Of a stretch of 14,838 nucleotides of DNA, positions 130 to 14,549 are shown piece after piece. Origin of the DNA: an uncultured Holophagae bacterium (GTDB taxonomy: Bacteria > Acidobacteriota > Holophagae > Acanthopleuribacterales > Acanthopleuribacteraceae); NCBI GenBank assembly GCA_964423555.1, contig CAYRFM010000136.1, forward strand, positions 1 through 14,838. The letters are read 5' to 3'. The stretch's first letter is position 1. Each line of letters starts with the position of its first letter. The position numbers were made by a program, and so were the translations under genes. The notes under the pieces are model-generated. The model did not search any database. It was not told the DNA's origin and saw only the letters and a program-made list of their open reading frames with translations.

Positions 130-543
130 ATGACCCAGCAAGCACCCAATCTCGCCCACACCTACCTGCACGTCGACAACGACGAGCGCACCACGGAGCT
201 GGCCAGCGGCGAAAATTTCTGGGCCGACCTGGCTCAGGGCCTTTACCCGCAGTTGGAGCACGGCAGATTGATGGCGACCTTCGATTTCGGCAAAGACTGG
301 AACATGTGGGAGCGCCACCCAGCTGGCGAGGAAGTGGTCGTGCTGATGTCGGGCGCCGTGCGGTTCCTGCTAGAGGAAGCCGAAGGCATTCGCGAGCTCC
401 AGCTGACCCAGCCCGGCGATTTTGCCCTGGTCCCGCCAGGGATTTGGCATACCGCGCGCACAGAGGTGCCGACCCGCATGCTGTTCCTGACGCCAGGCGC
501 CGGCACGGAACACCGGCCCATGGACAGCCAGGGCAACCCATGA
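130..543 (+). CDS. Cupin-domain protein (cupin_2-like small beta-barrel)
   Basis: 137-aa ORF. A GGAGG sits 6 nt upstream of the ATG. Motifs HPAGEEVVVLMSGAV...PGDFALVPPGIWH are typical of the conserved cupin beta-strands. Its stop overlaps the next start (ATGA at 540-543). Confidence 0.8.
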   Translation: MTQQAPNLAHTYLHVDNDERTTELASGENFWADLAQGLYPQLEHGRLMATFDFGKDWNMWERHPAGEEVVVLMSGAVRFLLEEAEGIRELQLTQPGDFALVPPGIWHTARTEVPTRMLFLTPGAGTEHRPMDSQGNP

Positions 544-1613: not shown

Positions 1614-1637
1614 GCCGCGCATCGGCCAGGCCTTTTT
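1608..1637 (+). terminator. Putative rho-independent terminator downstream of the DUF393 gene
   Basis: A 9-bp GC-rich stem pairs GCCTG(A)GCCG at 1608-1617 with CGGCCAGGC at 1623-1631, around a CGCAT loop. A C-TTTTT tract follows at 1632-1637. The stem overlaps the TGA stop. Confidence 0.45.
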
Positions 1638-1722
1638 GGCCGATGCCTGGTGTGGCTGTGCTAAACTTGCGGACTGCACCGCGCAAGCGGCTGCCCCAAT
1701 TGAGACCAGGACGCCCTGAACC

Positions 1723-4116
1723 ATGGCGAAGCCGCCCAGTTCCCCCCAGGAAAGCACCGAACCGATCCAACTCAAAGCACCCTGGCGCCTCCCCTGGTGG
1801 AGCCGATTGGACGCCTATCTCTTCGCCGAGATTCACTATCCGTTTTTCCTGGCGATGTTGGTCTACAACGGCATTTTCCTGATCCAGATCCTCAGCGAGG
1901 TCTCGCAGATCGGCAGCGGGCAATTTACGATTCCCTCGCGCCTGTTCCTGCTCGTGTTCCTCAGCCGTATCCCCGATATCCTGCCGCTGACATCCGCGCT
2001 CTCGTTCCTCTCCGGCACCCTCTTCGCGATGCGGCGCATGAGCGGCGACAGCGAGATCATTGCGCCGCAGTCCCTGGGCGTCAGCTTCTGGAGGGTCAAC
2101 CGCGCAATTTTCCTCTACGGCTTTTTGCTGGCGCTGGTCAACAGCTGCGTCATCAACTTCATGGGCCCCTACCTGACCCGCAAGGCCAAGGTCGAGTACC
2201 AGCACTTCATCGAATTCGAGGCCTTCCCCAACATCAATGAAGGCATCAACCAGCTCAGCAACAATGCCGTCATGTACGTCGACCGGGTCGAAGAGGGCAT
2301 GCTGGCCGGGATGATGATCCTCAACCGCAAGGACGCGGAGGAGGAGATCTACCTGGCGCGCAGAGCCTCGCTTTACACCAACCGCGAGGTTCATTTGGTC
2401 GACTGGACCATGTGCACCCTGCCGCGCACGTGGGATTCCACCAATGACATCCGCTTTCTCGACGGCAAGACCCTAGCCCGCCAGATTCCGGTGCCGACCA
2501 ACTTCGGCAAGGAGTATCATCCCGGCGAGCGCAGCGAGTTGGACACCCTGCAAATGTGGTCGGAAATCAAGGCACTGGGCGACAGGGTCCCACCCGAGCG
2601 CCTCTACGCGCTCTACCAGCGCCTGTTTTCGCCGCTGATCTTTCTGATCCTCGCCATGTTCGCCGTACCGCTGGCCGCGCGCCACCACCGCCAGAGCACG
2701 GGCTCGGGCGTCGGTTGGAGCTTGCTCTTTATCCTCATTCACTTCATGCTCACCAAGGTTTCCGGCGATCTGGCCGAGGAGCGGCGTCTCAGCCCCGAAC
2801 AGGGCGTGGCCCTGCCACTCTCGGTCCTGTTCGCCATCGGCTTCGTGCTCCAGGTCGGCAAGAACCTGTGGTGGAGCCAATACATCCGCAAGAACCAGGG
2901 CCGCATCGGCTACGCTCTGGAACGCGCCGCCCGCTTTGTCGGTCGGGGGCTTGCAGGCCTGTGGCGCATGATCACGCCCGCGCGCAATACCGCCAGCCGC
3001 AGCGCCGCGCAGACGTTTGTGTTCCCCAGCAAGCTGGACATGTACACCATCAAGTCGTTCTTTTCGATCCTGATCATGGTTCAGCTCTCATTCCTGTTGT
3101 TGTTCGTTTTGCTGGAGTACGTCCAGCTCAGCGACTCGATTCGCACCAACCACATCAGCGGTGAATTGGTCGTGACCTTCTTCCTCAACAAGCTGCCCAA
3201 CATGGTCGACGAGACTCTGTTCATCAGCCTGTTGATCGCGATTCTGCTGCTGTTCACCTTCATGAGCAAGAACCAGGAGATCGTGGCCATCCGCGCCGGC
3301 GGCGGCAGCATGCAGCGGCTCTGCCTGCCGCTGGTGTTCTGCGGTTTATTGGTCTCAGGCGGCGCCTTCTATCTGGAAAACATGTTCCTGCCCAACACCA
3401 ACCGCACCGCCCAGATCCTGCGCAACAAGATCCGCAACAAATCGGAGACGATGTTCACCCGCGATGTCTGGATGCGCACGAAGGAAGGCGTGATCCTCAA
3501 CTACACCCACTACGACGACCTCAAGAGCCGCCTGGTCGACGTGACCCGTTACCGCATCGAGGGCGATCCAGTGCAGCGGATCGAGCGCACCTCTTGGCCG
3601 ATCCTCGAGGCCCGCGGCGGCCAGCTCTGGAAGGTGGAAGTCCCTACCAAGGCCTGGCGCTTCCACTTCAACGGCCGCCTGGTCGAAAAGGTCGAACGCC
3701 TGGACATACCCAAGGACACCATGGTCGACCTGGGCTTCGACCTCGCCGAACTGCGCCACCACAAGCGCAAGGCAGCGGAGTTCAGCATCCACCAGCTACG
3801 CGACTACCTCAACTACCTCAAGAGCCTTGGCTACGTGGAGGGCCACTACCGCACCGAGCTCTACATCAAGTACGCCAAGCCCCTGATACCGCTGTTCATG
3901 ATGCTGCTGGCCATGCCGCTGGGGATCCAGGTCGGCCGCCGCGGCACCTTCTACGGCGTGGCGATCGGCTTTGGCGCCGGGCTATCGTTCCTCGGTTTCT
4001 TCGAACTTTGCAAGGAACTGGGCTCGTCGGGCACGCTCAACCCACTCGTCGCCGGCTGGTCAGTCGTCGTCGTCTACGGCTTCGTGGCGCTTTACCGCTT
4101 CATCAATCTCGAGTGA
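1723..4116 (+). CDS. lptFG: Fused LptF-LptG-like LPS export permease (two YjgP/YjgQ-family modules in one 797-aa polypeptide)
   Basis: Single uninterrupted ORF. The N-terminal half (aa ~25-400) shows the YjgP/YjgQ pattern: a TM helix, then RMSGDSEIIAPQSLGVSFWRV, a periplasmic beta-rich insert, then TM helices. The second half (aa ~440-797) repeats the pattern: MYTIKSFFSILIMVQLSFLLLFVLLEY...AIRAGGGSMQRL...periplasmic insert...C-terminal TM helices. LptF and LptG are normally separate adjacent genes. Confidence 0.7.
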   Translation: MAKPPSSPQESTEPIQLKAPWRLPWWSRLDAYLFAEIHYPFFLAMLVYNGIFLIQILSEVSQIGSGQFTIPSRLFLLVFLSRIPDILPLTSALSFLSGTLFAMRRMSGDSEIIAPQSLGVSFWRVNRAIFLYGFLLALVNSCVINFMGPYLTRKAKVEYQHFIEFEAFPNINEGINQLSNNAVMYVDRVEEGMLAGMMILNRKDAEEEIYLARRASLYTNREVHLVDWTMCTLPRTWDSTNDIRFLDGKTLARQIPVPTNFGKEYHPGERSELDTLQMWSEIKALGDRVPPERLYALYQRLFSPLIFLILAMFAVPLAARHHRQSTGSGVGWSLLFILIHFMLTKVSGDLAEERRLSPEQGVALPLSVLFAIGFVLQVGKNLWWSQYIRKNQGRIGYALERAARFVGRGLAGLWRMITPARNTASRSAAQTFVFPSKLDMYTIKSFFSILIMVQLSFLLLFVLLEYVQLSDSIRTNHISGELVVTFFLNKLPNMVDETLFISLLIAILLLFTFMSKNQEIVAIRAGGGSMQRLCLPLVFCGLLVSGGAFYLENMFLPNTNRTAQILRNKIRNKSETMFTRDVWMRTKEGVILNYTHYDDLKSRLVDVTRYRIEGDPVQRIERTSWPILEARGGQLWKVEVPTKAWRFHFNGRLVEKVERLDIPKDTMVDLGFDLAELRHHKRKAAEFSIHQLRDYLNYLKSLGYVEGHYRTELYIKYAKPLIPLFMMLLAMPLGIQVGRRGTFYGVAIGFGAGLSFLGFFELCKELGSSGTLNPLVAGWSVVVVYGFVALYRFINLE

Positions 4117-4119
4117 GCT
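4081..4119 (+). repeat. Left copy of a ~40-bp imperfect direct repeat (3' end of lptFG)
   Basis: TTCGTGGCGCTTTACCGCTTCATCAATCTCGAGTGAGCTC versus TTCGTGGCGCACTACCGCTTCATCGACCTGGAATAAGCGAGCTC at 4776-4819. The two encode FVALYRFINLE* and FVAHYRFIDLE*. Confidence 0.7.
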
Positions 4120-4164
4120 CCCAACCGCGATGGGGCATCACGGCTCTGTCGGGAACTAGCCCGA

Positions 4165-4460
4165 GGGTAGGGCTCCCCGCGACTAAGGCAAAGCGGCGGG
4201 GGCGCCTAGTACGACTTTGTCAGGTTGATGGGCCAAGCGCTCAGGCATCCAGCCTCGTCATAGTTGCGGGGAACGCGTATGGTCCGCGGAGCCGGGAAAA
4301 GTGAGGTAAAGCGCCAGCTTTGCCTTAGTCGCTGGGAACGCGTATCGTCCGCGGAGCCAGCGGAGAGCCATTGCACGGCCAACCTGACAAAGTCGTACTA
4401 GTCGCTTTACCTCACTTTGGGCTTCGCGTTTTCCGTTCGGGTTCCCCGCGACCGCGGATG
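4165..4460. repeat. Non-coding cluster of interleaved inverted and direct repeats (MITE-like or att-like scar region)
   Basis: Inverted pairs: A 4175-4195 (CCCCGCGACTAAGGCAAAGCG) with 4316-4336. B 4206-4227 (CTAGTACGACTTTGTCAGGTTG) with 4379-4400. C 4301-4313 (GTGAGGTAAAGCG) with 4403-4415. Direct repeat D: GGGAACGCGTATGGTCCGCGGAGCC at 4268-4292 and GGGAACGCGTATCGTCCGCGGAGCC at 4334-4358. A GGCTCC(C)CGCG(G)AC-like motif recurs four times. No credible ORF is present. Confidence 0.6.
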
Positions 4461-4468
4461 ACGGATTT

Positions 4469-4813
4469 GTGCAGCAGGGTGCTGCACAATTACCCTGGTT
4501 CCAGGCCGGCGCCTTCAAGCCGGAGCACCTGGGCCAGCTCGGCTTCTACCTGACCGCCATCGACCGCGACATGAAGAGCGCGCACGACAACCCCACGATT
4601 GGGCTCTTGCTCTGCAAGACCAAGAACAAGGTGGTGGCCGAATACGCCCTGGGCGACAAGACGCAGCCAATGGGCATCGCCGAATATCGCCTGGCGCAAG
4701 CCTTGCCTGCCGAGCTGCAAACCAGCCTGCCCACGATTGAAGAAATCGAGCGGGCCCTCATGACAATATGGTTGAAGTTCGTGGCGCACTACCGCTTCAT
4801 CGACCTGGAATAA
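4469..4813 (+). pseudogene. C-terminal remnant of a YhcG/DUF1016-family PD-(D/E)XK nuclease gene (N-terminal catalytic part missing)
   Basis: FKPEHLGQLGFYLTAIDRDMKSAHDNPTIGLLLCKTKNKVVAEYALGDKTQPMGIAEY matches the conserved C-terminal block of YhcG-like proteins (FKPEY-GQLNFYL...NP-IGIILC...VEYAL). Upstream in frame there is a stop at 4385-4387 and no nuclease core. A perfect 10-bp-stem palindrome TTGTGCAGCA-GGG-TGCTGCACAA at 4467-4489 sits at the truncation point. Confidence 0.55.
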
Positions 4814-4819
4814 GCGAGC
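4776..4819 (+). repeat. Right copy of the ~40-bp imperfect direct repeat (3' end of the yhcG remnant)
   Basis: See the left copy at 4081-4119. About 80% nucleotide identity over ~38 bp, and the same reading frame relative to the stop codon. Confidence 0.7.
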
Positions 4820-5773
4820 TCACTTAGCGAAAATATCCTCTGCCCGTCCAGCAACGAGCAAGTTTTTACCCCAACCCAGCACCGTGTCTGTGTCCGCAGC
4901 ATCTACTTTCGCCGCATTCTCAGCGGGCAGGTCACCAAACCGGGATTGATAGAGGGCCACAAACAATTTCTTTGCCCCTTGGCTCTCTCCTGCGCGCTGC
5001 GCTTCGTCCCAAGCCTGAACCCTAGGAGGACCAAATGTCCCAACTTCGAATCGCATGTTCACCTCCTGCTGTTCCCAATTCTGGACCTCAGCCACAGGGA
5101 TGTCAAGTTCTGGCGGCAAGGTCATGACGATATCGATGAAGTTCAATAGTGTCACAATTTCACCGCGATTGCGGCCGACGCGAAAGGCAAGCCGGAAAAG
5201 TTCGCGCTTCCAGCGCGCTCTTTGGTGGGGACTGCGCCGCGTTCTTGCGGAGTGCAGATGAGCAGCGACAACCAAGAGAAACGGGTTACAACCCGAGGCC
5301 AGTTTCTTGAGGTTGGGCTCCAGGTCAATTAACTTGACCACATTGAAGCGGTAATCGAGCGATGTGCCAAAGCAGCTGCGCTGGTAACCTTCCGGGCGCC
5401 AGTCACTCAGGTCCGTGAGAATCGCTAGCTGACAGATACCGTGCTTATCCCCCATTCGGTGGTCCAGCTCGAGGTAATAACCCAGCATGCGCTTGTTGAA
5501 ATGCGGCTGGGGTCGGTCCTGAACCTCGTTGTGAAGCATCACCAGAAAGTCGGAACCATCGAGCAAGTGAAGACGGACCAGTTTATCCAGGAAATGTCGA
5601 CGGCGCTGGCGAAAAGCGCTGGGCTTGGGAAGCTCCGAATCGCAAAACACAGGCGCCGCCTGCCAGTCGACTTTCGCCCACAGGTCCGGCAGAAACAACT
5701 CGAGCATGGGCGAAAGAAAATGCTCGATAACGTACTTCCAGGCGCCATCATAATGGGTCACCAATCTTGCCAT
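4820..5773 (-). CDS. Rpn-family (YhgA-like, DUF4351-containing) PD-(D/E)XK recombination-promoting nuclease or putative transposase
   Basis: Most likely start is the ATG at 5773 (MARLVTHYDGAWK), with AGGAGGG 6 nt upstream. The six-frame ORF extends to 5971, but that extension is AT-rich and not conserved-looking. The N-terminal YDGAWKYVIEHFLSPMLELFLPDL matches the D-D-WK...F-P signature of cyanobacterial-type Rpn proteins. LVMLHNEVQDRPQPHFNKRMLGYYLEL matches the IEVQ...RM-Y core. The C-terminus LFVALYQSRFGDLP...LGWGKNLLVAGRAEDI resembles DUF4351. The gene is ~50% GC against ~66% in flanking genes. Confidence 0.6.
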   Translation of the reverse strand: MARLVTHYDGAWKYVIEHFLSPMLELFLPDLWAKVDWQAAPVFCDSELPKPSAFRQRRRHFLDKLVRLHLLDGSDFLVMLHNEVQDRPQPHFNKRMLGYYLELDHRMGDKHGICQLAILTDLSDWRPEGYQRSCFGTSLDYRFNVVKLIDLEPNLKKLASGCNPFLLVVAAHLHSARTRRSPHQRARWKRELFRLAFRVGRNRGEIVTLLNFIDIVMTLPPELDIPVAEVQNWEQQEVNMRFEVGTFGPPRVQAWDEAQRAGESQGAKKLFVALYQSRFGDLPAENAAKVDAADTDTVLGWGKNLLVAGRAEDIFAK

Positions 5774-5989
5774 AGAGCCCTCCTGGCGGACGGCAGCCGC
5801 CTGAATAGGATGCAGAACTGAGCATGCCAAAATTATCCACGAATACTTTTCATCGTCAACCAGGGAAGGCGCGAGGGAGCTGTCAGCGCCTCCGTCGGGC
5901 CAGGACGTAAGGGTTGTGAAAAAAAGCACGAACTCGGGGAATGTATTTCTCCATAATTTCGCCTTAAGCATCTGAAGGCGAGTCGGTAC

Positions 5990-6056
5990 GTGATTCTTCT
6001 CCTGAGCTCGCCGAATTGGGATACAATCTGGTCAACTAATCGACCTGGAGGCCCCC
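5990..6056 (+). promoter_or_regulatory. Putative promoter and RBS region of the yqiJ/yqiK-like operon
   Basis: TACAAT -10-like hexamer at 6022-6027, with a weak -35. GGAGG at 6047-6051 lies 5 nt before the ATG at 6057. Confidence 0.25.
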
Positions 6057-6662
6057 ATGGACGAGCTCATCGATGCCGCGCTTGCGATGACCACGTTGCC
6101 CTTGACGATCCTCATGGGCGTCGTCGCCCTTTATTGGCTCTCGGTGCTCCTGGGAATCTTCGATCTGCACCTGTTCGACGGCGATGTTGACCTCGACCTC
6201 GACAGCACAGGCTTTTTTGGCCACCATTTCGGCTTTGGCGACGCGCCCTTCATGCTGGGCTTCAGTCTGGTCGTCTTCTTCTCCTGGGGCATCGCCGTAC
6301 CGGTCGAACATCTGATCCATCCGCAGGGCGGCATTGCCTGGGCTGGCCTAGCTGGCATTGTCCTGACCGGCTACGTGCTGGCCAAATTCGCGGCCGTTCC
6401 TCTGGGCCGCATCTTCACGCATTTCAACAAGGAGCACGGTGCCGTCGACGCGGTCGAAGGCCAAGTCTGCACCCTGCTCTATGACACCAACAACCAGGTC
6501 ACCTCGCAGGGCCGCATTGTCACCAAGAGCTCGCCCGTCGAGATCAACGTGCGGGCGAGAGCGGGCCAGCAGCTGCCCCAAGGCAGTCGCGTGCTGGTCA
6601 TTGAAAAGGCCGAAACGGGCAACTACTATTACGTGGAAACCATCGAAGAATTGGAGCGTTGA
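6057..6662 (+). CDS. yqiJ: NfeD/YqiJ-like inner-membrane protein (N-terminal TM helices plus a C-terminal OB-fold beta domain), the usual operon partner of SPFH proteins
   Basis: 201 aa. The N-terminal half has 3-4 hydrophobic helices. The C-terminal region (VEGQVCTLLYDTNNQVTSQGRIVTKSSPVEINVRARAGQQLPQGSRVLVIEKAETGNYYYVE) is the soluble beta-rich NfeD-like domain. Its stop is 2 bp before the ATG of the downstream SPFH gene. Confidence 0.7.
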   Translation: MDELIDAALAMTTLPLTILMGVVALYWLSVLLGIFDLHLFDGDVDLDLDSTGFFGHHFGFGDAPFMLGFSLVVFFSWGIAVPVEHLIHPQGGIAWAGLAGIVLTGYVLAKFAAVPLGRIFTHFNKEHGAVDAVEGQVCTLLYDTNNQVTSQGRIVTKSSPVEINVRARAGQQLPQGSRVLVIEKAETGNYYYVETIEELER

Positions 6663-6664
6663 AC

Positions 6665-9106
6665 ATGGGTTTTTTCGAAGCATTTAGCGGTGTTGTCATC
6701 GCCATCGTCGTCCTTGGTCTGCTGGCGATTTTCACCCTGGCCATCAGGCTCTATCGGCGCGTACCCCAGGGCATGGCCCTGATCCGCAACAGTCCCGGCG
6801 GCGCCCACGTCTCCTTTCACGGCGCCCTAGTCCTGCCCTTCATCCACAAGGCCGAGATCATGGACATCACCGTCAAACGCATCGAGATCGCCCGTGCCGG
6901 CTCCGACGGCCTGATCTGTAAGGACAACCTCCGCGCCGACATCAAGGTCGCCTTCTTCGTGCGGGTCAACAAGACCGCCGACGACGTGCGCAGCGTCGCC
7001 GATATCCTCGGCGTCGACCGTGCCTCCGACCAGAACGCCCTGATCGGCCACTTCGACGCCAAGTTCTCCGAGGCCCTCAAGACCGTCGGCAAGCGCTTCA
7101 ACTTCGTCGAGCTCTACGAGGCACGCGACCACTTCAAGCGCGAGGTCACCGGCGTCATCGGCGAGGATCTGGACGGCTATCGCCTGATCGACTGCGCCAT
7201 CGACTACCTGGAGCAGACCGAAATCACCAACCTCAATCCGGACAATATCCTCGACGCCGAGGGCATCAAAAAGATCACCGAGCTGACCTCGACCCAAAAG
7301 ATCCTCGCCAACCAAATCGACCGCGACCGCGAGAAGACGATCAAGCGTCAGAACGTCGAGGCCGAGGAAGCCGTGCTGGAGTTGGACCGCCAACTGACCG
7401 AGAAGCAGGAGCGTCAGAAGCGCGAGGTCGCCGCCGTCAAGGCCCGTGAGGCCGCCGAGGCCCACAAGATCCAGCAGGAAGAGCGCCTCAAGGCCGAGGG
7501 CGCCCGCATCCGCACCGAGGAAGAGCTGTCGGTGGCCGAGCAGAACAAGCAGCGCCAGGTGATTGTCGCCGAGAAGAACAAGCAGCGCACCGAGGCGATC
7601 GAGAACGAGCGCATCATCAAGGACCAGCAGCTCGAACAGACCGAGCGCGAGCGGGTCGTCGATCTGGCCCGCATCGAAAAAGAGCGCGCCATCGAGTCCG
7701 AGCGCAAGAACATCCAGGACGTCATTCGCGAGAGGGTGGCCGTCGAGAAGACCGTCGTCGAGGAAGAAGAGAAGATCAAGGACACACGCGCCGTCGCCGA
7801 AGCCGAGCGCACCAAGAAGGTCACCGTCGTCGCCGCCGAGCGTGACGCGGAAGAGTCCCGCGTCAAGCTCGTCGTCAAGGCCCGTGCGGAAAAAGAGTCC
7901 GCCGAACAGCTGGCCCTCCAGAAAGTGATCGAGGCCGAAGCCGACCAGAAGGCCGCCGACAAGAGCGCCGAGGCCCGCAAGTTGCTGGCCGAGGCCGCCG
8001 CCGCCGAAGCCGCCGCGACGGGCCTGGCCGAGGTCAAGGTCGCCGCCGCCCGCGCCGAGGCCAAGGAACGCGAGGGTAGCGCGCAGGCCTTCGTGATCGA
8101 GAAAGTCGCCCTTGCCCAGGCCCAGGCCGCCGCCGCCAAGGCCGGCGCGCTGCGCACCGAGGGTGCCGCCGAGGCCGAGGTCATCGAGAAGAAAGCGCTC
8201 GCCGCCGCCAAGGCCGAGCAGGCCCAAGGCGCCGCCGAGGCCGAGGTCATCGAGAAGAAGGCGCTCGCCGCCGCCAAGGCCGAGCAGGCCCAAGGCTCCG
8301 CCGAGGCCGAGGTCATCGAGAAGAAAGCGCTCGCCGCCGCCAAGGCCGATGAGGCCCAGGGCAGTGCCGCCGCCGTCGTCATCGAGAAGAAGGCCCAGGC
8401 CGAGGCCAAAGGCATCGAGCTCAAGGCCGGCGCCCGCCGCACCGAAGGCGGTCTCGAGGCCGAAGTCCTCGAACAGAAAGCCCTCGCCCAGGCCCGCGCC
8501 GAGGAAGCCGCCGCCGCCGCCCTCGAGAAGACCGGCAGCGCCGAAGCCAACAACCTGCTCAAGAAGTTCCAAGCCGACGCCCAGGGCATCCGCGACAAGG
8601 CCGAGGCCATGAAGCTGTTCGACCCCTCCGGCCGTGCCCACGAGGAGTTCAAGCTGGTCACCGAACGGGACCGCCAACTGGCCCTGGCCCAGATCGAGAT
8701 GCAGAAGAGCATCGCCGCCGCCCAGGCCGAGGTTCTCTCCGCCGGCCTGCAATCGGCCAAGATCGAGATCATCGGCGGCGAGTCGATGTTCCTCGACAAG
8801 CTGCTCGGCTCCGTCACCCAGGCCAAGTCCGTCGACCACCTCGTCGGTGGCTCGAAGGTCCTCAACGACGTCAAGAACACCTTCTTCAACGGCGACCCCG
8901 CCTACTTCAAAAGCCAGCTCCACACCTTCATCGACCAGTTCGGTCTGGACAGCGAGGACATCAAGAACCTCAGCATCTCGGCCGCGATCCACAAGATGAT
9001 GAATGCCACCGCCGACGACCGCGCCCGCGGCGTGCTCTCCTCGATCCTCGGTTGGGCCGAGAAACTGGGGCTGGACGCCACCAAACTCGACGACTTCCGC
9101 AAGTGA
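6665..9106 (+). CDS. yqiK: SPFH/band-7 flotillin-like protein (YqiK/FloT-like), 814 aa, with an unusually long Ala/Glu-rich coiled coil containing tandem repeats
   Basis: N-terminal TM helix (VVIAIVVLGLLAIFTLAI), then an SPFH domain (ALVLPFIHKAEIMDITVKRIEIARAGSDGLICKDNLRADIKVAFFVRVNK...). A ~450-aa EA-rich helical region follows, then a flotillin C-terminal region. ATG at 6665 has GGAG 9 nt upstream. The six-frame track starts at TTG 6659. Confidence 0.85.
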   Translation: MGFFEAFSGVVIAIVVLGLLAIFTLAIRLYRRVPQGMALIRNSPGGAHVSFHGALVLPFIHKAEIMDITVKRIEIARAGSDGLICKDNLRADIKVAFFVRVNKTADDVRSVADILGVDRASDQNALIGHFDAKFSEALKTVGKRFNFVELYEARDHFKREVTGVIGEDLDGYRLIDCAIDYLEQTEITNLNPDNILDAEGIKKITELTSTQKILANQIDRDREKTIKRQNVEAEEAVLELDRQLTEKQERQKREVAAVKAREAAEAHKIQQEERLKAEGARIRTEEELSVAEQNKQRQVIVAEKNKQRTEAIENERIIKDQQLEQTERERVVDLARIEKERAIESERKNIQDVIRERVAVEKTVVEEEEKIKDTRAVAEAERTKKVTVVAAERDAEESRVKLVVKARAEKESAEQLALQKVIEAEADQKAADKSAEARKLLAEAAAAEAAATGLAEVKVAAARAEAKEREGSAQAFVIEKVALAQAQAAAAKAGALRTEGAAEAEVIEKKALAAAKAEQAQGAAEAEVIEKKALAAAKAEQAQGSAEAEVIEKKALAAAKADEAQGSAAAVVIEKKAQAEAKGIELKAGARRTEGGLEAEVLEQKALAQARAEEAAAAALEKTGSAEANNLLKKFQADAQGIRDKAEAMKLFDPSGRAHEEFKLVTERDRQLALAQIEMQKSIAAAQAEVLSAGLQSAKIEIIGGESMFLDKLLGSVTQAKSVDHLVGGSKVLNDVKNTFFNGDPAYFKSQLHTFIDQFGLDSEDIKNLSISAAIHKMMNATADDRARGVLSSILGWAEKLGLDATKLDDFRK
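8165..8420 (+). repeat. Intragenic 66-bp (22-aa) tandem repeats: three near-identical copies plus degenerate flanking copies
   Basis: GCCGCCGAGGCCGAGGTCATCGAGAAGAAAGCGCTCGCCGCCGCCAAGGCCGAGCAGGCCCAAGGC repeats at 8165-8230, 8231-8296 and 8297-8362 with 2-4 mismatches. It encodes AAEAEVIEKKALAAAKAEQAQG. Degenerate copies extend to ~8530. Confidence 0.85.
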
Positions 9107-9112
9107 CCGCCC

Positions 9113-9139
9113 GCGCGGGTGAGTGCCGCTCACCCGCGC
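9113..9139 (+). promoter_or_regulatory. Perfect GC-rich hairpin between the flotillin gene and the giant ATPase gene (possible terminator, attenuator or processing site)
   Basis: GCGCGGGTGAG-TGCCG-CTCACCCGCGC: an 11-bp perfect stem with a 5-nt loop, starting 7 nt after the flotillin stop. No U-tract follows. The downstream gene has its own GAGGG RBS at 9162-9166. Confidence 0.4.
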
Positions 9140-9173
9140 CGCGTCCCACGATCCTAACTGCGAGGGTGTCAGC

Positions 9174-12100
9174 ATGTCCGATCAGAACCCGGCGCCTGAG
9201 GGCGCCGCAGAAGGAACCCAGGTCCGCCTCGAGAGCGGCACCTACGAAGTCATCCGCGGCCGCCTGCAGGCCCAGGCCAACGAGCTCCAGAGCCGCCTCG
9301 ACGGGCTCAACCTCGTGCGCAAACAGACGTTCGGGGCCATCGAGACCCGCCTCACCGGCACCCAGCGCGTGCTCACCGCCAACAACTGCATCCCCCAGGA
9401 CATGTACGCCATCGGCGACTGCTTCCTGTTCGGCTACAACGTCCACCTGGGCCTGCGCACCGACCTCCAGCTCGAGGACGTCTTCGCCGTCTATGCCTAC
9501 GCCGACGGCCAGTTTCAGGCCCGCGACCTGAGCCTGATCCAGGACCCCGAGTTCGAAAAGGACTTCAAGAACCTCTACAAGTACTACAAGAACACCAGTT
9601 TCATCAAATTCGCCATCATCGGCCCGCACCTCTTCATGCAGTTCCAGATCGGCCGCGCCGTCACCGATTTCAAGACCTTCAAGTGGCTGATCGGCGACAG
9701 CGGCCTGACCTACCTGGACAGCCGCTCCGACCACGAGTTCAAAGTCCCGCCCCAGCACGACTTCGAGTGGTCCCGCGTGCGCCGCGACTGGTTCCGCATG
9801 GGCGCTCACCCCCACGTCTCGATCGAGGACCGCGTCTTCGTCGAAACCATCGGCGGCGACCTGACCATCAAGGTCGAGGACAACACCACCAGCGGCAGCG
9901 GCATCTACGCCGAACCCGTCGACCACCCCGATCAAACCCTCGACGACAGCGAGATCTACTACGCCGCCGTCGGCCACGTCATCCTTCTGAAGATCCTGCC
10001 CTACCAGGAGAAAAAGTACCGCTACTTCGTCTACAACGAGAAGCTTCAGGAGGCGCTGAGAGTCGACCCCATCGGTGAGAGCTGCGTCTTCTTGCCCGAC
10101 GGCCACGGCCTGATCTTCCCCCGCGGCTACTATCTCCAGACCGGCATGCTCAAGCTCTTCGAGGCCCAGGTCGCCGGCCTGGCTTTCGAAAAGCGCCTGA
10201 CCTCGCCCAATGGCGAGGACTTCCTCTACATCTTCTATAACCGCGAGAGCGGCGTCTATGTCCTGCTCAGTTACAACCTGATCCAGCAAAAGGTCGAGAG
10301 CCCGATCGTCTGTAACGGCTACAGCTTCTTCGCCGATGGCACCCTGATCTACTTCCGGGCCGAGGAGCAGCCCGGCAAGCACCATTCGGTCCAAATTTGG
10401 CAAACCCCATACACCCGCGAGGGCTTCGACCTCGGCCAGCAGCATAACTCGCCCATCGCCCGCATCGGCAACAAGGACATCGTCCGCGCCATGGCCGAGT
10501 GCGGCGAGGTCCTGACCCTGGTGCGCAAGGAGGACAGCTACGCCAACCTCTACGTCGACATCGCCCGCAAGTGCACCGACATCGTCGACAGCTACTTCTG
10601 GCTGCGCGAGGAGGCCACCGCCGACCTCCACGCCGCGCTCGGCGCCATCGCCGCCGCCGCCCGCTCCGCCATCGACGAATTTGACAAAGTCAGCCGCATC
10701 AAAAAGACCACCCGCGAGGAGATCGAGCGCGTCGCCGCCGCCGCGGCCGCCCTGTTCAAGCAGATCGCCCGCACGCCCCTGCGCCAGGTCGACGAGTTCG
10801 TCGCCAGCCTGACCAAACTGCGCAGCCTGCGCGGCGAGGCCATCTCCTGCCGCGAGCGCCGCTACGCCGACAGCGCCCGCATCGACGCCCTCGAGACGCA
10901 GATCCGCGAACACGCCGAACAACTCTCCAGCGCCTGCGTCGCCTTCCTGCTCCGCGACGAGGCCCTCGCCCCCTACCAGAGCCGCCAGCTCCGACTCGAG
11001 CAGCAACTGGCCGAGGTCCGCACCGTCGCCGCCGCCCGTGCCCTCGAGCAGGAGCTGGACGGCTCCAGCCGCGAGCTCGAGCTGCTGATCGAGATCGTCT
11101 CCAACCTCAAGATCGACGACGCCACCCAGACGACCCGCATTATCGACGCCGTCAGCGCCATCTTCGCCGAGCTCAACCGCCTCAAGGCCGCCCTCAAGAA
11201 CCGCGTCCTCGAGTTGGCCCGCAGCGAGGGCGTGGCCGAGTTCAACGCCCAGCTCAAACTGCTCGCCCAGTCCGTCACCAACTACCTGGACGTCTGCGAT
11301 AGCCCCGACAAATGCGAGTCCTATCTGACGAAACTGACCGTCCAGGTCGAGGAGCTGGAGGGCCGTTTCAGCGAGTTTGACGAGTTCATCAACCAGCTCG
11401 TCGAGAAGCGCGAAGAGATCTACAACGCCTTTGAAGCCAAGCGCCTGGCTCTGGTCGAGGCGCGCAACAAGAAGGCCGCCGCGCTGTTCTCCGCCGCCGA
11501 GCGCATCCTTGCCGGCATCCGCAACCGCGCCGCCAAGTTCGACCAGGTCGCCGAGATCAACGGCTACTTCGCCGGCGACCTGATGGTCGAAAAACTGCGC
11601 AACCTCATTGATCAGCTCGTCGCCCTGGAGGACACCGTCAAGGCCGACGACCTCCAGGCCCGCCTCAAGACCATCCGCGAAGAAACCGTCCGCCAGCTCA
11701 AAGACCGCCAAGAATTGTTCGACGGCGGCACCAACCTGATCCGCTTCGGCAACCACGCCTTCAGCGTCAATACCCAGGCCCTGGCCCTGACCATGGTCGT
11801 GCGCGATGGCCAGCAGTGCTACCACCTGGCCGGCACCGACTTCTTCGAACCCGTCGCCGACCCCGCCTTCCTCGAGACCCGCGCCGTCTGGGACCAGGAA
11901 CTCGTCAGCGAGACCGCGACCGTCTACCGCGCCGAGTTCCTGGCCTGGCGCCTGCTGCAAACACTCGACCAGGGCGACCCCCACCAGCTGCTCTGTGCGA
12001 GCGCCGAGGAGCTGCCCGAGCGGGTGCGCCTGTTCGCCGGACCCCGCTACGCCGAGGGCTACACCAAGGGCGTCCACGACGGCGATGCCGCCCTGCTGCT

Positions 12101-14549
12101 CGCCAACTTGCTCGAGCTGCGCCGCGGCCTCGGCCTGCTGGCCTGGCCCAGCCGCGCCCGCGCCCTGGCGGCGCTCTATTGGCACCGCTTCTGCCCCGAG
12201 CCCCTGCGACTGCACTGGCGCGCCACCTGCGCCGGCCTAGCCACTTTGTTCGAGTTCTATCCCAGCGCCAGCGCTTCAGCCCGTCATGTCGCCGAGATCG
12301 CCGAGCAGCTGCGCGCCTTCGTCGCCGCCACCGCCCTGTTCGCGCCCGAGCTCGTCGACGACGCCGCCGCCGCACTGTTCAACCAGCTCCAGCAGGGTGA
12401 CGGCTTCGCCATCGCCGTCGAGGCCAGCGAGCTCTACCGCGGCTTCGCCTCGCAGATCGCCCATCGCGGCTTCCAGGAGCGCCTGCAGGCCGCCCTGCGC
12501 GAACTGGAGCGGGAGCCCGCCCGCGCCTTCCAGCTGACCCGCGAGTGGGTCCGCGCTTACCGCGAGCACGAGACCAAGATCGACGCCCAGTTCGAGGACG
12601 AGGCCGCCGTGCTCTACCTCACCGACAGCTGGGCCGCCACCAGAGTCGGCAGCCTGACCTGCGCGCGCCTGCTCGAGGGCTTCAAGGGCAGCCACGCCGT
12701 CCTCGACCAGGGCCGCTACCAGCTCGACTTTTACAGCTTCCGCACACGCTTGGCCACCTACGACCGCGAGCTGGTCCCGCGCTTCGAGCACTACACCGCC
12801 CAAAAGAAGCGCCTGCTCGAGGAAAGCGCCCGCACCATGCGCCTTGACGAGTTCAAGCCCAAGGTCCTGACCAGCTTCGTGCGCAACCAGCTGCTCGACA
12901 AGGTCTACCTGCCCCTGATCGGCGACAACCTGGCCAAGCAGATCGGTGCCGCCGGCGCCGGCACGCGCACTGACCGCATGGGCATGTTGCTGCTGATCTC
13001 ACCGCCCGGCTACGGCAAGACGACCCTGATGGAGTACATCGCCAACCGTCTCGGCCTGATCTTCATGAAGATCAACGGCCCGGCCCTGGGCCACGAGGTC
13101 ACCTCCCTCGACCCCGCCGCCGCGCCCCATGCCGCCGCCCGCGAGGAGCTCCACAAGCTCAGCCTTAGCTTCGAGATGGGCGACAACGTCATGATCTACG
13201 TCGACGACATCCAGCACTGCAACCCCGAGTTCCTGCAAAAGTTCATCTCACTCTGCGACGCCCAGCGCAAGATCGAGGGCGTCTACAAGGGCCGCACCCG
13301 CACCTACGACTTCCGCGGTCGCAAGGTCGCCGTCGTCATGGCCGGCAACCCCTACACCGAGAGCGGTGCCAAGTTCCGCATCCCCGACATGCTCGCCAAC
13401 CGCGCCGACACCTATAACCTGGGCGACATCATCGGCGACAACGCCGAGAGCTTCGAGCTCTCCTACATCGAGAACGCCCTGACCTCGAACCCCGTCCTCA
13501 ACAAGTTGGCCGCGCGCAGCACCAAGGACGTCCTGACCCTGGCCCAGGCGGCCCGCAGCGGTAGCCGCGACGGCCTCGAGCTGGAGGGCAACTACGGCGC
13601 CGAGGAACTGGCCGAGTTCACCGCCGTGCTGCAGAAGCTGTTCCGGGTCCGCGACGTCATTTTGCAGGTCAACCTGGCCTACATCAAGAGCGCCGCCATG
13701 GAGGACGCCTACCGCACCGAACCGGCCTTCAAGCTCCAGGGCAGTTACCGCAACATGAACAAGATCGCCGAGAAGGTGTTGCCGATCATGAACGAGGCCG
13801 AACTCGAAGGCCTGATCCGCACCCACTATGAGAACGAGGCCCAAACGCTGACCAGCGGCGCCGAGGCCAACCTGCTCAAGTTCCGCGAGCTGTGCGGCAC
13901 CCTGAAAGGCGCGGAGGCCGAGCGCTGGCAAGAGATCAAACGCAGCTTCGCCGGGCGCCAGCGCCTGCAGGGCATCGACACCAGCGATAAGCTCGGCCAG
14001 GCCGTGGCCCAGCTGCAGGCCTTCGCCAACGGCCTGGACGCCATCAAAGAGCTGCTGGCCAAGGGCATCGACCAGCAGTACAAGCTGGCCAAATGGGAGG
14101 CCAAGCAAAAGACCGAACCCCGCGACCCGACGGCACCCCAGCACACCCACACGACCCTGGCCCCCGAGACTCTGACCCGCCTGGCCGCGCTGCTGGAACC
14201 GCTCAGCCAGAACCTGGCCCAGGCCCTGGCCCAAGCGACCAAGGCACCGCTGATCGTGCCAGCCGCCGCGCCGGCGCCGGTTCCAGCGCCAGCACCACAG
14301 CAGAGTCAAACCGAAGAAGCGCTAGGCAAATACCTGGCCGCCCGCGACAAGGAGCAGCAGTACCTATTGAAACTGCTGCGCCAGCAATTCGAGGTCATGC
14401 AGCATTGGCTGAAGCCGACCTACGAAACGACCAAGGCCCACGACGCCACCATGGACAGCCTGACCAGTGCCGTCAACAACCTGATGGCGACCCACGGCAG
14501 CCTGCTCAACTACCTCCAACAATTCGAAGGCAAACGCCCCCGCACCTAA
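9174..14549 (+). CDS. Giant (~1,790 aa) multidomain protein: N-terminal beta-rich domain, long helical/coiled-coil middle, C-terminal AAA+ ATPase domain of the AAA_5 (MoxR/CbbQ/dynein-related) type, and a helical tail after a Pro/Ala linker
   Basis: Preferred start is ATG 9174 (MSDQNP), with GAGGG 7 nt upstream. The six-frame ORF starts at GTG 9123, inside the hairpin. Walker A LLLISPPGYGKTTLMEY at ~13000-13030. Walker B NVMIYVDDIQH at ~13190-13215. Sensor-1 VAVVMAGNPYTESG. A MLANRADTYNL motif resembles the ALLDRF motif of AAA_5. The first ~450 aa are aromatic and beta-rich (YAIGDCFLFGYNVHLG, FLYIFYNRESGVYVLLSYNL, SFFADGTLIYF). Residues ~480-1250 are helical, Ala/Leu/Glu/Arg-rich. A PAAAPAPVPAPAPQQ linker precedes the last ~80 aa. 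Confidence 0.8.
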   Translation: MSDQNPAPEGAAEGTQVRLESGTYEVIRGRLQAQANELQSRLDGLNLVRKQTFGAIETRLTGTQRVLTANNCIPQDMYAIGDCFLFGYNVHLGLRTDLQLEDVFAVYAYADGQFQARDLSLIQDPEFEKDFKNLYKYYKNTSFIKFAIIGPHLFMQFQIGRAVTDFKTFKWLIGDSGLTYLDSRSDHEFKVPPQHDFEWSRVRRDWFRMGAHPHVSIEDRVFVETIGGDLTIKVEDNTTSGSGIYAEPVDHPDQTLDDSEIYYAAVGHVILLKILPYQEKKYRYFVYNEKLQEALRVDPIGESCVFLPDGHGLIFPRGYYLQTGMLKLFEAQVAGLAFEKRLTSPNGEDFLYIFYNRESGVYVLLSYNLIQQKVESPIVCNGYSFFADGTLIYFRAEEQPGKHHSVQIWQTPYTREGFDLGQQHNSPIARIGNKDIVRAMAECGEVLTLVRKEDSYANLYVDIARKCTDIVDSYFWLREEATADLHAALGAIAAAARSAIDEFDKVSRIKKTTREEIERVAAAAAALFKQIARTPLRQVDEFVASLTKLRSLRGEAISCRERRYADSARIDALETQIREHAEQLSSACVAFLLRDEALAPYQSRQLRLEQQLAEVRTVAAARALEQELDGSSRELELLIEIVSNLKIDDATQTTRIIDAVSAIFAELNRLKAALKNRVLELARSEGVAEFNAQLKLLAQSVTNYLDVCDSPDKCESYLTKLTVQVEELEGRFSEFDEFINQLVEKREEIYNAFEAKRLALVEARNKKAAALFSAAERILAGIRNRAAKFDQVAEINGYFAGDLMVEKLRNLIDQLVALEDTVKADDLQARLKTIREETVRQLKDRQELFDGGTNLIRFGNHAFSVNTQALALTMVVRDGQQCYHLAGTDFFEPVADPAFLETRAVWDQELVSETATVYRAEFLAWRLLQTLDQGDPHQLLCASAEELPERVRLFAGPRYAEGYTKGVHDGDAALLLANLLELRRGLGLLAWPSRARALAALYWHRFCPEPLRLHWRATCAGLATLFEFYPSASASARHVAEIAEQLRAFVAATALFAPELVDDAAAALFNQLQQGDGFAIAVEASELYRGFASQIAHRGFQERLQAALRELEREPARAFQLTREWVRAYREHETKIDAQFEDEAAVLYLTDSWAATRVGSLTCARLLEGFKGSHAVLDQGRYQLDFYSFRTRLATYDRELVPRFEHYTAQKKRLLEESARTMRLDEFKPKVLTSFVRNQLLDKVYLPLIGDNLAKQIGAAGAGTRTDRMGMLLLISPPGYGKTTLMEYIANRLGLIFMKINGPALGHEVTSLDPAAAPHAAAREELHKLSLSFEMGDNVMIYVDDIQHCNPEFLQKFISLCDAQRKIEGVYKGRTRTYDFRGRKVAVVMAGNPYTESGAKFRIPDMLANRADTYNLGDIIGDNAESFELSYIENALTSNPVLNKLAARSTKDVLTLAQAARSGSRDGLELEGNYGAEELAEFTAVLQKLFRVRDVILQVNLAYIKSAAMEDAYRTEPAFKLQGSYRNMNKIAEKVLPIMNEAELEGLIRTHYENEAQTLTSGAEANLLKFRELCGTLKGAEAERWQEIKRSFAGRQRLQGIDTSDKLGQAVAQLQAFANGLDAIKELLAKGIDQQYKLAKWEAKQKTEPRDPTAPQHTHTTLAPETLTRLAALLEPLSQNLAQALAQATKAPLIVPAAAPAPVPAPAPQQSQTEEALGKYLAARDKEQQYLLKLLRQQFEVMQHWLKPTYETTKAHDATMDSLTSAVNNLMATHGSLLNYLQQFEGKRPRT

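What the first reader, a model, noticed from the sequence alone, without database searches (positions are those of the whole stretch)
4081..4819. ~40-bp direct repeat duplicates the lptFG 3' end onto the end of a yhcG gene remnant and flanks the repeat-rich insert
The last 11 codons of lptFG (FVALYRFINLE*) and of the truncated yhcG-like ORF (FVAHYRFIDLE*) are near-identical. About 38 bp of their DNA also matches at ~80% (TTCGTGGCGC..TACCGCTTCATC...CT.GA.T.AGC..GAGCTC). The copies lie ~695 bp apart and bracket the IR cluster and the yhcG remnant. This is the signature expected when an integrative element inserts into the 3' end of a protein-coding gene and supplies a substitute 3' end, giving attL/attR-like imperfect repeats. 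A recombination or gene-conversion event between two unrelated genes is the alternative. Either way, the present 3' end of the essential lptFG gene may not be the ancestral one.
Basis: seen in the sequence. Interest (0 to 1): 0.55.

Follow-up and report, generated by a model that had tools for sequence, protein, structure and literature searches.

The report
Displaced duplicate of the lptFG gene end
The last 38 bases of the essential outer-membrane lipid transport gene lptFG occur twice because foreign DNA was recombined into the end of the gene; this is an ordinary kind of insertion scar, and the working gene still ends in the normal, conserved way.

Summary
The repeat is real. Positions 4081-4118 and 4778-4815 match at 31/38, in the same frame, and both end in a stop codon. 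The next best match anywhere in the window is 22/38.

Copy 1 is the native-type end of the fused lptFG gene. Every one of about 20 relatives ends in ...ALYRF(I/V)NLE*. Copy 2 is foreign to YhcG: none of 1155 YhcG homologues has this tail.

A sister genome (87% identical LptFG) has an empty site, with lptFG followed after 163 nt by the next operon. The window's extra DNA is 4119 to about 5950-6020, roughly 1.9 kb, and the repeats bracket only its first 697 bp.

The extra DNA holds:
- a repeat cluster (4119-4454);
- a twice-deleted yhcG pseudogene (4455-4758);
- 19 nt of filler;
- copy 2;
- six bases later, the stop of a convergent Rpn-like nuclease gene (4820-5773) that no family model recognises directly.

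The contig has no integrase. No other lptFG locus (13 examined) has a second tail.

Best reading: a 3'-end displacement scar. Incoming DNA was recombined into the end of lptFG and the resident terminus was pushed downstream. I slightly favour a homology-anchored illegitimate joint over a decayed att-flanked element. It is a new example of a known kind and of low interest.

The parts
1723..4116 (+). Fused lptF-lptG gene (797 aa), intact.
   Evidence: Pfam LptF_LptG, two stretches, E = 1.9e-108. Orthologues at 42-87% identity are collinear to the last residue.
4081..4118 (+). Copy 1 of the repeat: the functional last 11 codons of lptFG, the TGA stop and 2 nt. Homology to the sister genome ends exactly at 4118.
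   Evidence: It is 33/38 identical to the sister L002 end.
4119..4454 (.). Cluster of direct and inverted repeats. It has four copies of a roughly 45-nt unit in both orientations, a 22-nt exact inverted pair at 4206-4227 / 4380-4401, and a third pair at 4298-4313 / 4404-4419. The pairings cross, so this is not one hairpin. Origin unknown.
   Evidence: RNA fold z = -6. No Rfam, tRNA or Pfam hit. No copies in JGI metagenome contigs, viral contigs or plasmids. The Logan assembly is broken over 4143-4403.
4455..4503 (+). Scrap of the yhcG N-terminal domain (encodes ..VQQGAAQLPW..).
   Evidence: 82% DNA identity to L024 312-360, which lies in the 5' part of a yhcG gene.
4500..4758 (+). yhcG C-terminal (PD-(D/E)XK YhcG_C) fragment. 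It is joined to the N-domain scrap by an internal deletion of about 583 bp and lacks the catalytic D...ELK region.
   Evidence: 87% DNA identity to L024 944-1202. Pfam YhcG_C positions 80-157 of 157. PADLOC PDC-S02. It matches 50 of 51 columns that are invariant in 13 homologues.
4759..4777 (+). 19-nt filler (CATGACAATATGGTTGAAG) between the end of yhcG homology and copy 2. It matches neither yhcG nor lptFG. This is the junction.
4778..4815 (+). Copy 2 of the repeat: a displaced or duplicated lptFG terminus. It now supplies the last 11 codons and the TAA stop of the chimeric yhcG pseudogene ORF (4469-4813).
   Evidence: It has L->H and N->D changes at residues that are nearly invariant in LptFG. 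TAAGCG is shared with the sister's lptFG end.
4820..5773 (-). Rpn-like (DUF4351 / PD-(D/E)XK 'recombination-promoting nuclease / putative transposase') gene of 317 aa. Its stop lies 6 nt from the stop of copy 2. It is absent from the sister genome.
5774..6020 (.). Upstream region of the Rpn-like gene and the right edge of the extra DNA. blastn homology to the sister resumes at 6021. By eye it may resume at about 5955 (AATTTCGCCTTAAGCAT... against the sister's AATTGCGCTTAAGCAT...).
6057..14549 (+). Conserved three-gene operon (201 aa, 815 aa, and a 1808-aa DUF3686/AAA ATPase). In the sister genome it directly follows lptFG.

Best explanation
Copy 2 is the scar of a recombination event that put foreign DNA into the last 33-38 bases of lptFG. 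An intact, canonical gene end (copy 1) was kept or supplied on the lptFG side. A second copy of the terminus was left 697 bp downstream, where it is now read in frame as the tail and stop codon of a decaying yhcG pseudogene. It has no function of its own.

The sub-mechanism I favour is 3'-end displacement by homology-anchored illegitimate recombination.
1. The resident chromosome carried lptFG followed 6 nt later by the convergent Rpn-like gene ('allele A').
2. DNA arrived from a diverged relative carrying lptFG followed by a yhcG-type defence islet ('allele B').
3. It recombined homologously inside lptFG. Its far end was joined illegitimately 33 nt upstream of the resident stop codon.
4. The two alternative downstream alleles ended up stacked in tandem.
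5. Later deletions removed most of yhcG.

Shown: the duplication, the empty site, the chimeric ORF, the deletions and the absence of an integrase. Inferred: the order of events, the donor, and the nature of the joint. The confidence given is for this specific sub-mechanism. That copy 2 is an insertion scar of some kind I hold at about 0.9.
For: - The repeat is real and far beyond chance.
- Copy 1 is the canonical LptFG terminus in all orthologues. No YhcG homologue has the tail, and YhcG homology stops at ...IERAL, 19 nt before copy 2.
- The sister contigs L002 and L003 have lptFG, a short spacer, then the operon, with homology breaking exactly at 4118.
- The repeats bracket only 697 bp of the roughly 1.9 kb of extra DNA. 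Copy 2 sits 6 nt from the stop of the Rpn-like gene. Related genes elsewhere are likewise wedged 12-20 nt from a host gene. This fits copy 2 having once been the true end of lptFG abutting that gene.
- Copy 2 shares the TAA stop and the following GCG with the sister's lptFG end, whereas copy 1 has TGA.
- The contig has no integrase, transposase or tRNA.
- The region bears other illegitimate joints: two deletions inside yhcG.
- The only other long locus with a close (72%) homologue of the Rpn-like gene, L005, shows the same kind of scar. Directly after the gene's stop comes a 40-60-nt copy (90%) of the start of the histidine-kinase gene that lies 985 bp downstream. That copy is fused to a 57-67-nt copy (79%) of the sequence upstream of the Rpn-like gene. 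This is two alternative cargo alleles in tandem with one illegitimate joint, which an att model does not explain.
- The mechanism has precedents: homology-facilitated illegitimate recombination, and displacement of 3' ends in T6SS and Rhs loci (PMC5361080; PMC3240628).
Against: - No donor or intermediate allele (lptFG + yhcG islet alone, or lptFG + Rpn-like gene alone) was found, so the joint's microhomology cannot be checked.
- Identity along lptFG against the sister shows no step that would mark a recombination tract.
- The repeat begins with a perfect 10-nt block and contains a perfect 12-nt block, and its right end coincides with the left edge of the insert. This is also exactly what an att core would look like.
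- Copy 2's H and D residues would be odd for a once-functional lptFG end, unless they arose after displacement.
- The L005 analogy rests on one locus.
Confidence: 0.45

Rival explanations
1. Decayed site-specific integrative element. An island with a tyrosine or serine recombinase used the last roughly 38 bp of lptFG as attB. Its attP supplied a substitute gene end (copy 1 = attL) and the original end was displaced to attR (copy 2). This is what prophages e14 and phage 21 do at icd. Deletions later removed the integrase and most of the cargo, leaving the repeat cluster and the yhcG fragments. The Rpn-like gene was already next to lptFG, or arrived separately.
For: - Imperfect direct repeats with perfect 10-nt and 12-nt blocks, starting abruptly and running through the stop codon.
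- The left edge of the insert coincides with the end of copy 1.
- An empty site exists in the sister genome.
- Deletional decay inside the segment is documented.
- The E. coli K-12 precedent was checked here: e14 starts inside icd, and the icdC pseudogene at its far end is a 165-nt copy at 153/165 identity with 2 amino-acid differences.
Against: - No integrase, excisionase or any recombinase gene or fragment lies between the repeats or on the contig.
- The segment is only 697 bp.
- None of 13 other lptFG loci has a second tail or an element at this site.
- No homologue of the tail or the junction was found in viral contigs.
- The repeats do not coincide with the indel relative to the sister.
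- The similar scar in L005 has two different repeats abutting, which is not an att structure.
Confidence: 0.3
2. In-situ target duplication. Foreign DNA was inserted by illegitimate end-joining at a staggered break, or by replication template switching. This duplicated 38 bp of the resident lptFG end as an initially perfect repeat. Copy 2 then drifted neutrally.
For: - Relative to the sister and to L004, copy 2 has 5 private changes in 38 nt and copy 1 has about 2. This is compatible with neutral drift of copy 2 over roughly the time since the split from the sister (lptFG is 79-88% identical).
- The copies share C at position 18 against both relatives.
Against: - Three of the 5 private changes in copy 2 are synonymous-type. 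This is not what drift predicts, though the sample is too small for significance.
- Copy 1, not copy 2, carries the derived TGA stop.
- The neighbouring yhcG fragment keeps 50 of 51 family-invariant residues, arguing against long neutral decay of the segment. yhcG may, however, have been inactivated late.
- A 38-bp stagger is unusual.
Confidence: 0.12
3. Deletion fusion. The incoming island carried a second, foreign lptG/lptFG gene downstream of yhcG. A later deletion removed everything between the yhcG 3' end and the last 36 nt of that paralogue.
For: Deletions are frequent in this segment. The divergence of copy 2 (82%) is in the range seen between species.
Against: - It needs an extra unobserved gene and a deletion that happens to leave an in-frame tail.
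- No other lptFG-derived sequence is detectable in 4119-6020.
- Copy 2 abuts the Rpn-like gene just as a resident gene end would.
Confidence: 0.05
4. Assembly artefact or chimera: the two copies lie on different molecules or strains and were joined through the repeat cluster. Alternatively, the similarity is chance convergence.
For: The central 261 nt of the repeat cluster (4143-4403) is absent from the Logan contigs of the same run.
Against: - Both junctions next to the copies are present at 100% identity in independent contigs.
- Synteny with the sister genome places lptFG next to the same operon, and copy 2 itself lies next to that operon.
- Chance is excluded by the shuffles and by the shared frame and stop.
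Confidence: 0.03

Closest known systems
Prophage e14 / phage 21 integration into the 3' end of icd in E. coli (icdC pseudogene)
   Same: An insertion into the 3' end of a housekeeping protein gene. A functional end is kept next to the gene, and an imperfect copy of the terminus, ending in its own stop codon, is left at the far side of the inserted DNA. Checked here: 165-nt repeat at 92.7% identity with 2 amino-acid differences.
   Different: e14 is 15 kb with intE/xisE, and the repeats delimit it exactly. Here the bracketed DNA is 697 bp with no recombinase, the repeat is only 38 nt at 82%, and the repeats do not coincide with the indel relative to the sister genome.
C-terminal / 3'-end displacement by homology-facilitated illegitimate recombination (Rhs loci; T6SS effector-immunity arrays, Kirchberger et al. 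2017, PMC5361080)
   Same: Incoming DNA shares the conserved upstream gene as an anchor and brings non-homologous downstream cargo. The resident 3' end and downstream gene are pushed back and kept as orphans. No integrase is involved, and alternative alleles end up stacked.
   Different: In those systems the displaced pieces are variable toxin tips and immunity genes under selection. Here the displaced piece is 38 nt of an essential transporter gene and has no evident use. Neither donor nor intermediates were observed.
Genomic islands in the 3' ends of tRNA/tmRNA genes
   Same: Direct repeats made of the 3' end of the target gene flank the inserted DNA, and the gene is regenerated.
   Different: The target is a protein-coding gene. 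No tRNA is present in the window and there is no integrase.
Rpn (YhgA-like) recombination-promoting nucleases of E. coli (Kingston et al. 2017, PMC5350276; Zhong et al. 2023, PMC10400941)
   Same: The gene abutting copy 2 belongs, by its relatives' matches and conserved D/D/E/Q residues, to this superfamily. Its E. coli members cut DNA non-specifically and raise RecA-independent recombination.
   Different: The window protein itself matches no Pfam or NCBIfam model. Identity to characterised Rpn proteins was not measured. Nothing shows that it produced the junction.

Membership tests
att-flanked site-specific integrative element (e14/icd type) | Direct repeats (attL/attR) derived from the target gene end lie exactly at both edges of the inserted DNA. 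| tested here: inconclusive
   The left edge of the extra DNA coincides with the end of copy 1 at 4118. Copy 2 ends at 4815, but the extra DNA relative to the sister continues to about 5950-6020.
att-flanked site-specific integrative element (e14/icd type) | An integrase or recombinase gene (or its remnant) within the element. | tested here: not met
   No such ORF or domain between the repeats or anywhere on the 14.8-kb contig. The contig is the whole record, so nothing outside it can be examined.
att-flanked site-specific integrative element (e14/icd type) | An empty site in related genomes. | tested here: met
   In L002 and L003 the lptFG stop is followed 163 nt later by the operon, with no second tail.
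att-flanked site-specific integrative element (e14/icd type) | Recurrent use of the same target in other genomes. | tested here: not met
   Thirteen other lptFG loci (L002-L004, L007-L015), with up to 10 kb of flank, carry a single tail. The sample is small and mostly distant (42-46% identity).
Homology-facilitated illegitimate recombination / 3'-end displacement | A conserved anchor gene directly upstream, with the resident 3' end retained downstream of the new DNA. | tested here: met
   lptFG is collinear with the sister up to 4118. Copy 2, followed by the Rpn-like gene and the operon, lies downstream.
Homology-facilitated illegitimate recombination / 3'-end displacement | An illegitimate joint at a short microhomology between donor and recipient. 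| not testable with these tools
   The donor sequence beyond 4777 is unknown. 19 nt of unassignable filler lie at the joint.
Homology-facilitated illegitimate recombination / 3'-end displacement | A recombination tract of donor origin in the anchor gene. | tested here: inconclusive
   Sliding identity against the sister shows no step towards the 3' end. A donor as distant from the sister as the recipient would leave none.
YhcG / DUF1016 PD-(D/E)XK nuclease (PADLOC PDC-S02) | A match to the YhcG_C domain and presence of the catalytic D...E-x-K core. | tested here: not met
   Only model positions 80-157 of 157 are present. The FFIDLL...ELK core is deleted. This is a pseudogene fragment of a family member.
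Rpn / YhgA-like recombination-promoting nuclease (TIGR01784, PF04754/PF12784, DUF4351) | A significant match to the family models. | tested here: inconclusive
   The window protein has no hit. Among its 7-member family, 4 hit TIGR01784 (best 4e-4), 5 hit DUF4351 (best 2.4e-5) and 1 hits PDDEXK_2.
Rpn / YhgA-like recombination-promoting nuclease (TIGR01784, PF04754/PF12784, DUF4351) | Catalytic residues D11, D63, E82 and Q84 of RpnA, and a PD-(D/E)XK fold. | tested here: inconclusive

The most novel reading that the evidence does not exclude
Rpn-like nuclease genes of this subfamily may mark, and perhaps cause, illegitimate joints that stack alternative cargo alleles next to themselves, leaving 40-60-nt copies of the edges of neighbouring host genes. 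In both loci where a close member could be seen with flanks (the window and L005), such a copy begins 6-18 nt after the gene's stop. That would be a natural footprint of the RecA-independent recombination so far shown for E. coli Rpn proteins only on overexpression.
Probability: 0.08. Interest if true: 0.55.

Novelty: new member of a known kind. Interest (0 to 1): 0.25.

Why it matters
It adds little. It is one more example of foreign DNA entering at the very end of a housekeeping gene while that gene's coding end stays intact. The site downstream of lptFG in this acidobacterial (Acanthopleuribacter-like) lineage is a variable spot that collects nuclease and defence-type genes (yhcG, Rpn-like). 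For annotation, ORF 4469-4813 should be treated as a chimeric pseudogene rather than a YhcG protein, and lptFG as intact. The only lead with wider interest is the repeated association of an Rpn-like gene with such scars. It rests on two loci.

Tried and rejected
- **First genome-contig scan.** The single LptFG protein found nothing. The profile scan gave 6 loci and the metagenome scan 5, none with a second tail.
- **RNA explanations.** There is no Rfam family and no tRNA or tmRNA in 3900-6200 or in the window.
- **Repeat cluster as a multi-copy element.** Exact-pattern scans for its two best-conserved units found nothing in JGI metagenome contigs or viral contigs. Distant blastn against plasmids matched only the yhcG part. 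Whether it is a MITE or REP-like family stays open.
- **Repeat cluster built from local sequence.** I looked for pieces of the lptFG end, the sister's spacer and the Rpn upstream region. The best signal is a 12-nt exact inverted match of copy 1 (4085-4096 / 4305-4316) with p = 0.017 uncorrected over 8 tests. It is not significant.
- **Tail peptide elsewhere.** A degenerate back-translation of FVAHYRFIDLE found nothing in viral contigs.
- **Dating the event from decay of the yhcG fragment.** It keeps 50 of 51 invariant residues. This is uninformative because yhcG may have stayed functional long after insertion.
- **A recombination tract in lptFG.** Sliding identity shows no step.
- **Homology between the sister's spacer and the DNA after copy 2.** Only TAAGCG and scattered bases match.
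- **Truncated YhcG hits P0029 and P0037.** I considered a shared breakpoint, but they look like unrelated frameshifted fragments.
- **KSB1 homologues of the Rpn-like gene.** They sit inside the nuo operon and show no comparable scars next to the gene. The 46-nt repeat in L018 flanks a different small gene and may be tandem paralogy.
- **PDB sequence search.** The Rpn-like family profile gave nothing. The afdb50 fold library was unavailable.


Full report
**Observation**

Positions 4081-4118 and 4778-4815 form a 38-nt direct repeat with 31 identities, 697 bp apart.
- Copy 1 is the last 11 codons, the TGA stop and 2 nt of ORF 1723-4116. That ORF is a 797-aa fusion of two LptF_LptG permease domains and ends ...FVALYRFINLE*.
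- Copy 2 is the last 11 codons, the TAA stop and 2 nt of ORF 4469-4813, which ends ...FVAHYRFIDLE*.
- The similarity starts abruptly. Only 2 of the 15 bases upstream of each copy match.
- Scanning the 38-mer over the whole window on both strands gives 31 identities at 4778 and at most 22 anywhere else. In 300 randomisations of 3900-5000, the best 38-mer pair never exceeded 27.

**Which gene owns the sequence**

LptFG relatives were found at 87%, 61% and 42-46% identity. They are Acanthopleuribacter / Sulfidibacter-like Acidobacteriota. All end in ...(F/I/A)(V/I/F)(A/S)LYR(F/Y)(I/V)N(L/M)(E/D) followed by a stop. L790 and N795 are nearly invariant. Copy 1 therefore encodes the canonical terminus.

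The other ORF matches the YhcG_C PD-(D/E)XK domain only up to its residue 88-99 (Pfam model end 157/157; PADLOC PDC-S02). Of 1155 YhcG homologues, none covers the tail. Aligned homologues end ...LPSIEQIERELA plus a short acidic tail.

**Empty site and true extent of the insert**

The contig of the 87% relative (L002, GCA_965188225.1, and a Logan contig L003) has lptFG followed 163 nt later by the homologue of window ORF 6057-6662, and then the same operon.
- blastn aligns window 244-4118 to L002 5-3883, and window 6021 onward to L002 4007 onward. By eye the homology may resume near 5955.
- The window therefore has about 1.9 kb (4119 to about 5950-6020) in place of roughly 75-120 nt of the sister's spacer.
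- The repeats bracket only the first 697 bp of this.
- More distant relatives have different downstream genes, so the state cannot be polarised further.

**What the extra DNA contains**

1. 4119-4454 is a dense cluster of direct and inverted repeats. It has four copies of a roughly 45-nt unit, a 22-nt exact inverted pair and a further inverted pair. Their pairings cross, so it is not a single hairpin. It has no Rfam, tRNA or protein-family match, and no copies were found elsewhere.
2. 4455-4503 and 4500-4758 are two pieces of one yhcG gene. Against the yhcG of an unrelated type I restriction island (L024) they match at 82% and 87% DNA identity, with 583 bp missing between them and the first ~280 nt missing as well. 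The catalytic core lies in the deleted part. Similar genes sit on proteobacterial plasmids. This is a horizontally mobile defence-type gene, now a pseudogene.
3. 4759-4777 is 19 nt that matches nothing.
4. Copy 2 follows.
5. Six bases after its stop comes the stop of a convergent gene, 4820-5773 (317 aa; the 383-aa ORF is an over-extension).
   - It matches no model itself.
   - Members of its small family hit DUF4351 and the Rpn 'recombination-promoting nuclease / putative transposase' model.
   - It keeps D9, D63, E83 and Q85, close to the catalytic D11, D63, E82 and Q84 of E. coli RpnA (PMC5350276).
   - A medium-confidence model gives weak fold matches to PD-(D/E)XK nucleases.
   - It has a promoter-like site of its own.

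There is no integrase or transposase on the contig, and the contig is the entire record.

**Reliability of the assembly**

Two Logan contigs from the same sequencing run reproduce window 26-4142 and 4404-8016 at 100% identity. Both repeat copies and their junctions are therefore independently assembled. Only the middle of the repeat cluster (4143-4403) depends on the MAG assembly.

**Mechanism**

Any explanation must place foreign DNA into the last 33-38 nt of lptFG while keeping a working end. Three readings fit.

*(a) Site-specific integration.* An attP mimics the gene end, as with e14 at icd. I checked that precedent: e14 begins 165 nt before the icd stop, and the icdC pseudogene at its far end is 153/165 identical.
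- For it here: the repeat has perfect 10-nt and 12-nt blocks, a sharp start, and an end that coincides with the left edge of the insert.
- Against it: there is no recombinase or remnant of one, the bracketed segment is only 697 bp, the repeats do not coincide with the indel, and no second tail was found at any of 13 other lptFG loci.

*(b) Homology-anchored illegitimate recombination, or '3'-end displacement'.* This is the mechanism proposed for Rhs and T6SS arrays (PMC5361080). DNA from a diverged relative carrying lptFG plus a yhcG islet recombines within lptFG, and its far end is joined illegitimately just upstream of the resident stop. The resident terminus and the Rpn-like gene are pushed downstream. 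This explains several features:
- the imperfect identity, which at 82% is in the range of between-species divergence of this gene;
- the filler at the joint;
- the absence of a recombinase;
- the position of copy 2 tight against the Rpn-like gene, since relatives of that gene are typically wedged 12-20 nt from host genes;
- the shared TAAGCG of copy 2 and the sister's lptFG end.

It is also favoured by a parallel. In L005, the only other long contig with a close (72%) homologue of the Rpn-like gene, the gene's stop is followed by a 40-60-nt copy of the start of the histidine-kinase gene that lies 985 bp further on. That copy is fused to a 57-67-nt copy of the sequence upstream of the Rpn-like gene. 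This is the signature of two alternative alleles of one locus placed in tandem by one illegitimate joint, not of an att site.

*(c) An initially perfect target duplication that drifted.* This is possible but fits less well. Copy 2's private changes are mostly synonymous-type, copy 1 carries the derived stop codon, and the adjacent yhcG piece keeps 50 of 51 invariant residues. None of these is statistically decisive.

I rank (b) at about 0.45, (a) at about 0.3 and (c) at about 0.12. Minor alternatives are deletion fusion with a foreign lptG copy, misassembly and chance.

Under (a) or (b) the DNA of the present lptFG end would indeed be the incoming copy, and copy 2 the resident one. The encoded terminus, however, is identical to that of the closest relatives. 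Copy 2 is the one with substitutions at two nearly invariant residues. Functionally, nothing is unusual about the present end of lptFG.

**Comparison and novelty**

The structure behaves like the icd/e14 and tRNA-island cases, where a gene end is regenerated and a copy displaced. Mechanistically it is probably closer to the integrase-free displacement seen at Rhs and T6SS loci. It fails the integrase criterion for membership in the first class, and the donor-side criteria of the second cannot be tested. It is a new example of a known kind of scar, at a gene (lptFG) for which I found no report of such use.

The one observation that could be of wider interest is the repeated association of this Rpn-like subfamily with short copies of host-gene edges. 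It rests on two loci and is offered only as a lead.

Noticed in passing
window 4820-5773 (- strand): A 317-aa gene recognised by no Pfam, NCBIfam, PADLOC or PHROG model. It belongs to a tiny family (7 proteins among 5.8 billion clusters) whose other members weakly match DUF4351 and the Rpn recombination-promoting nuclease model. D9, D63, E83 and Q85 are invariant. It is absent from the sister genome.
   Followed up: yes
L005 2350-2416, 3504-3626, 4484-4546: In an unrelated contig carrying a 72% homologue of that gene, the gene is followed at once by a copy (90%) of the start of a histidine-kinase gene located 985 bp downstream. That copy is fused to a copy (79%) of the sequence upstream of the Rpn-like gene. 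It looks like two alternative cargo alleles stacked by one illegitimate joint.
   Followed up: partly
window 4119-4454: A repeat cluster with crossing inverted and direct repeats (22-nt exact inverted pair at 4206-4227 / 4380-4401; RNA fold z = -6). It has no known family and no copies in the collections searched. The Logan assembly of the same run breaks exactly over 4143-4403, which suggests multi-copy or variable sequence.
   Followed up: partly
window 4795-4807 vs L024 888-900: Copy 2's CTTCATCGACCTG is 13/13 identical to the yhcG segment encoding the catalytic FFIDLL motif, which is deleted in the window's remnant. Three of the seven differences between copy 1 and copy 2 go towards this yhcG sequence. 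This is either chance or a trace of microhomology-driven exchange.
   Followed up: partly
window 4085-4096 and 4305-4316: A 12-nt exact inverted match between copy 1 (its copy-1-specific CTT codon included) and the repeat cluster. p is about 0.017 before correction for 8 tests, so it is not significant.
   Followed up: yes
window 6057-14549: A three-gene operon: 201 aa and 815 aa with no family hits, and 1808 aa with DUF3686 'ATPase involved in DNA repair', DUF7902 and AAA domains, plus weak LmuB/IetA PADLOC hits. It is conserved in the sister genome and could be a defence or repair system.
   Followed up: no
window 7967-8356 (ORF 6659-9106, residues ~437-566): The 815-aa protein has an internal segment with no counterpart in the 718-aa sister protein. 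blastn shows a short repeated match (window 8228-8262 against L002 6143-6177), hinting at a repeat expansion.
   Followed up: no
L018, L019-L023 (candidate division KSB1-like contigs): Distant homologues of the Rpn-like gene sit between nuoG and nuoH inside the NADH dehydrogenase operon, which is also interrupted by small DUF2442/DUF4160 genes. In L018, a 46-nt repeat (74%) duplicates a gene end, stop and next start codon around one such small gene (2909-2954 / 3292-3337).
   Followed up: partly
window 4500-4752: The yhcG fragment is 70-80% identical at DNA level to PDDEXK nuclease genes on Polaromonas, Aeromonas and Ralstonia plasmids, and 87% identical to one in a type I restriction island (L024). 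This is unusually high cross-phylum DNA conservation, indicating recent horizontal spread.
   Followed up: partly
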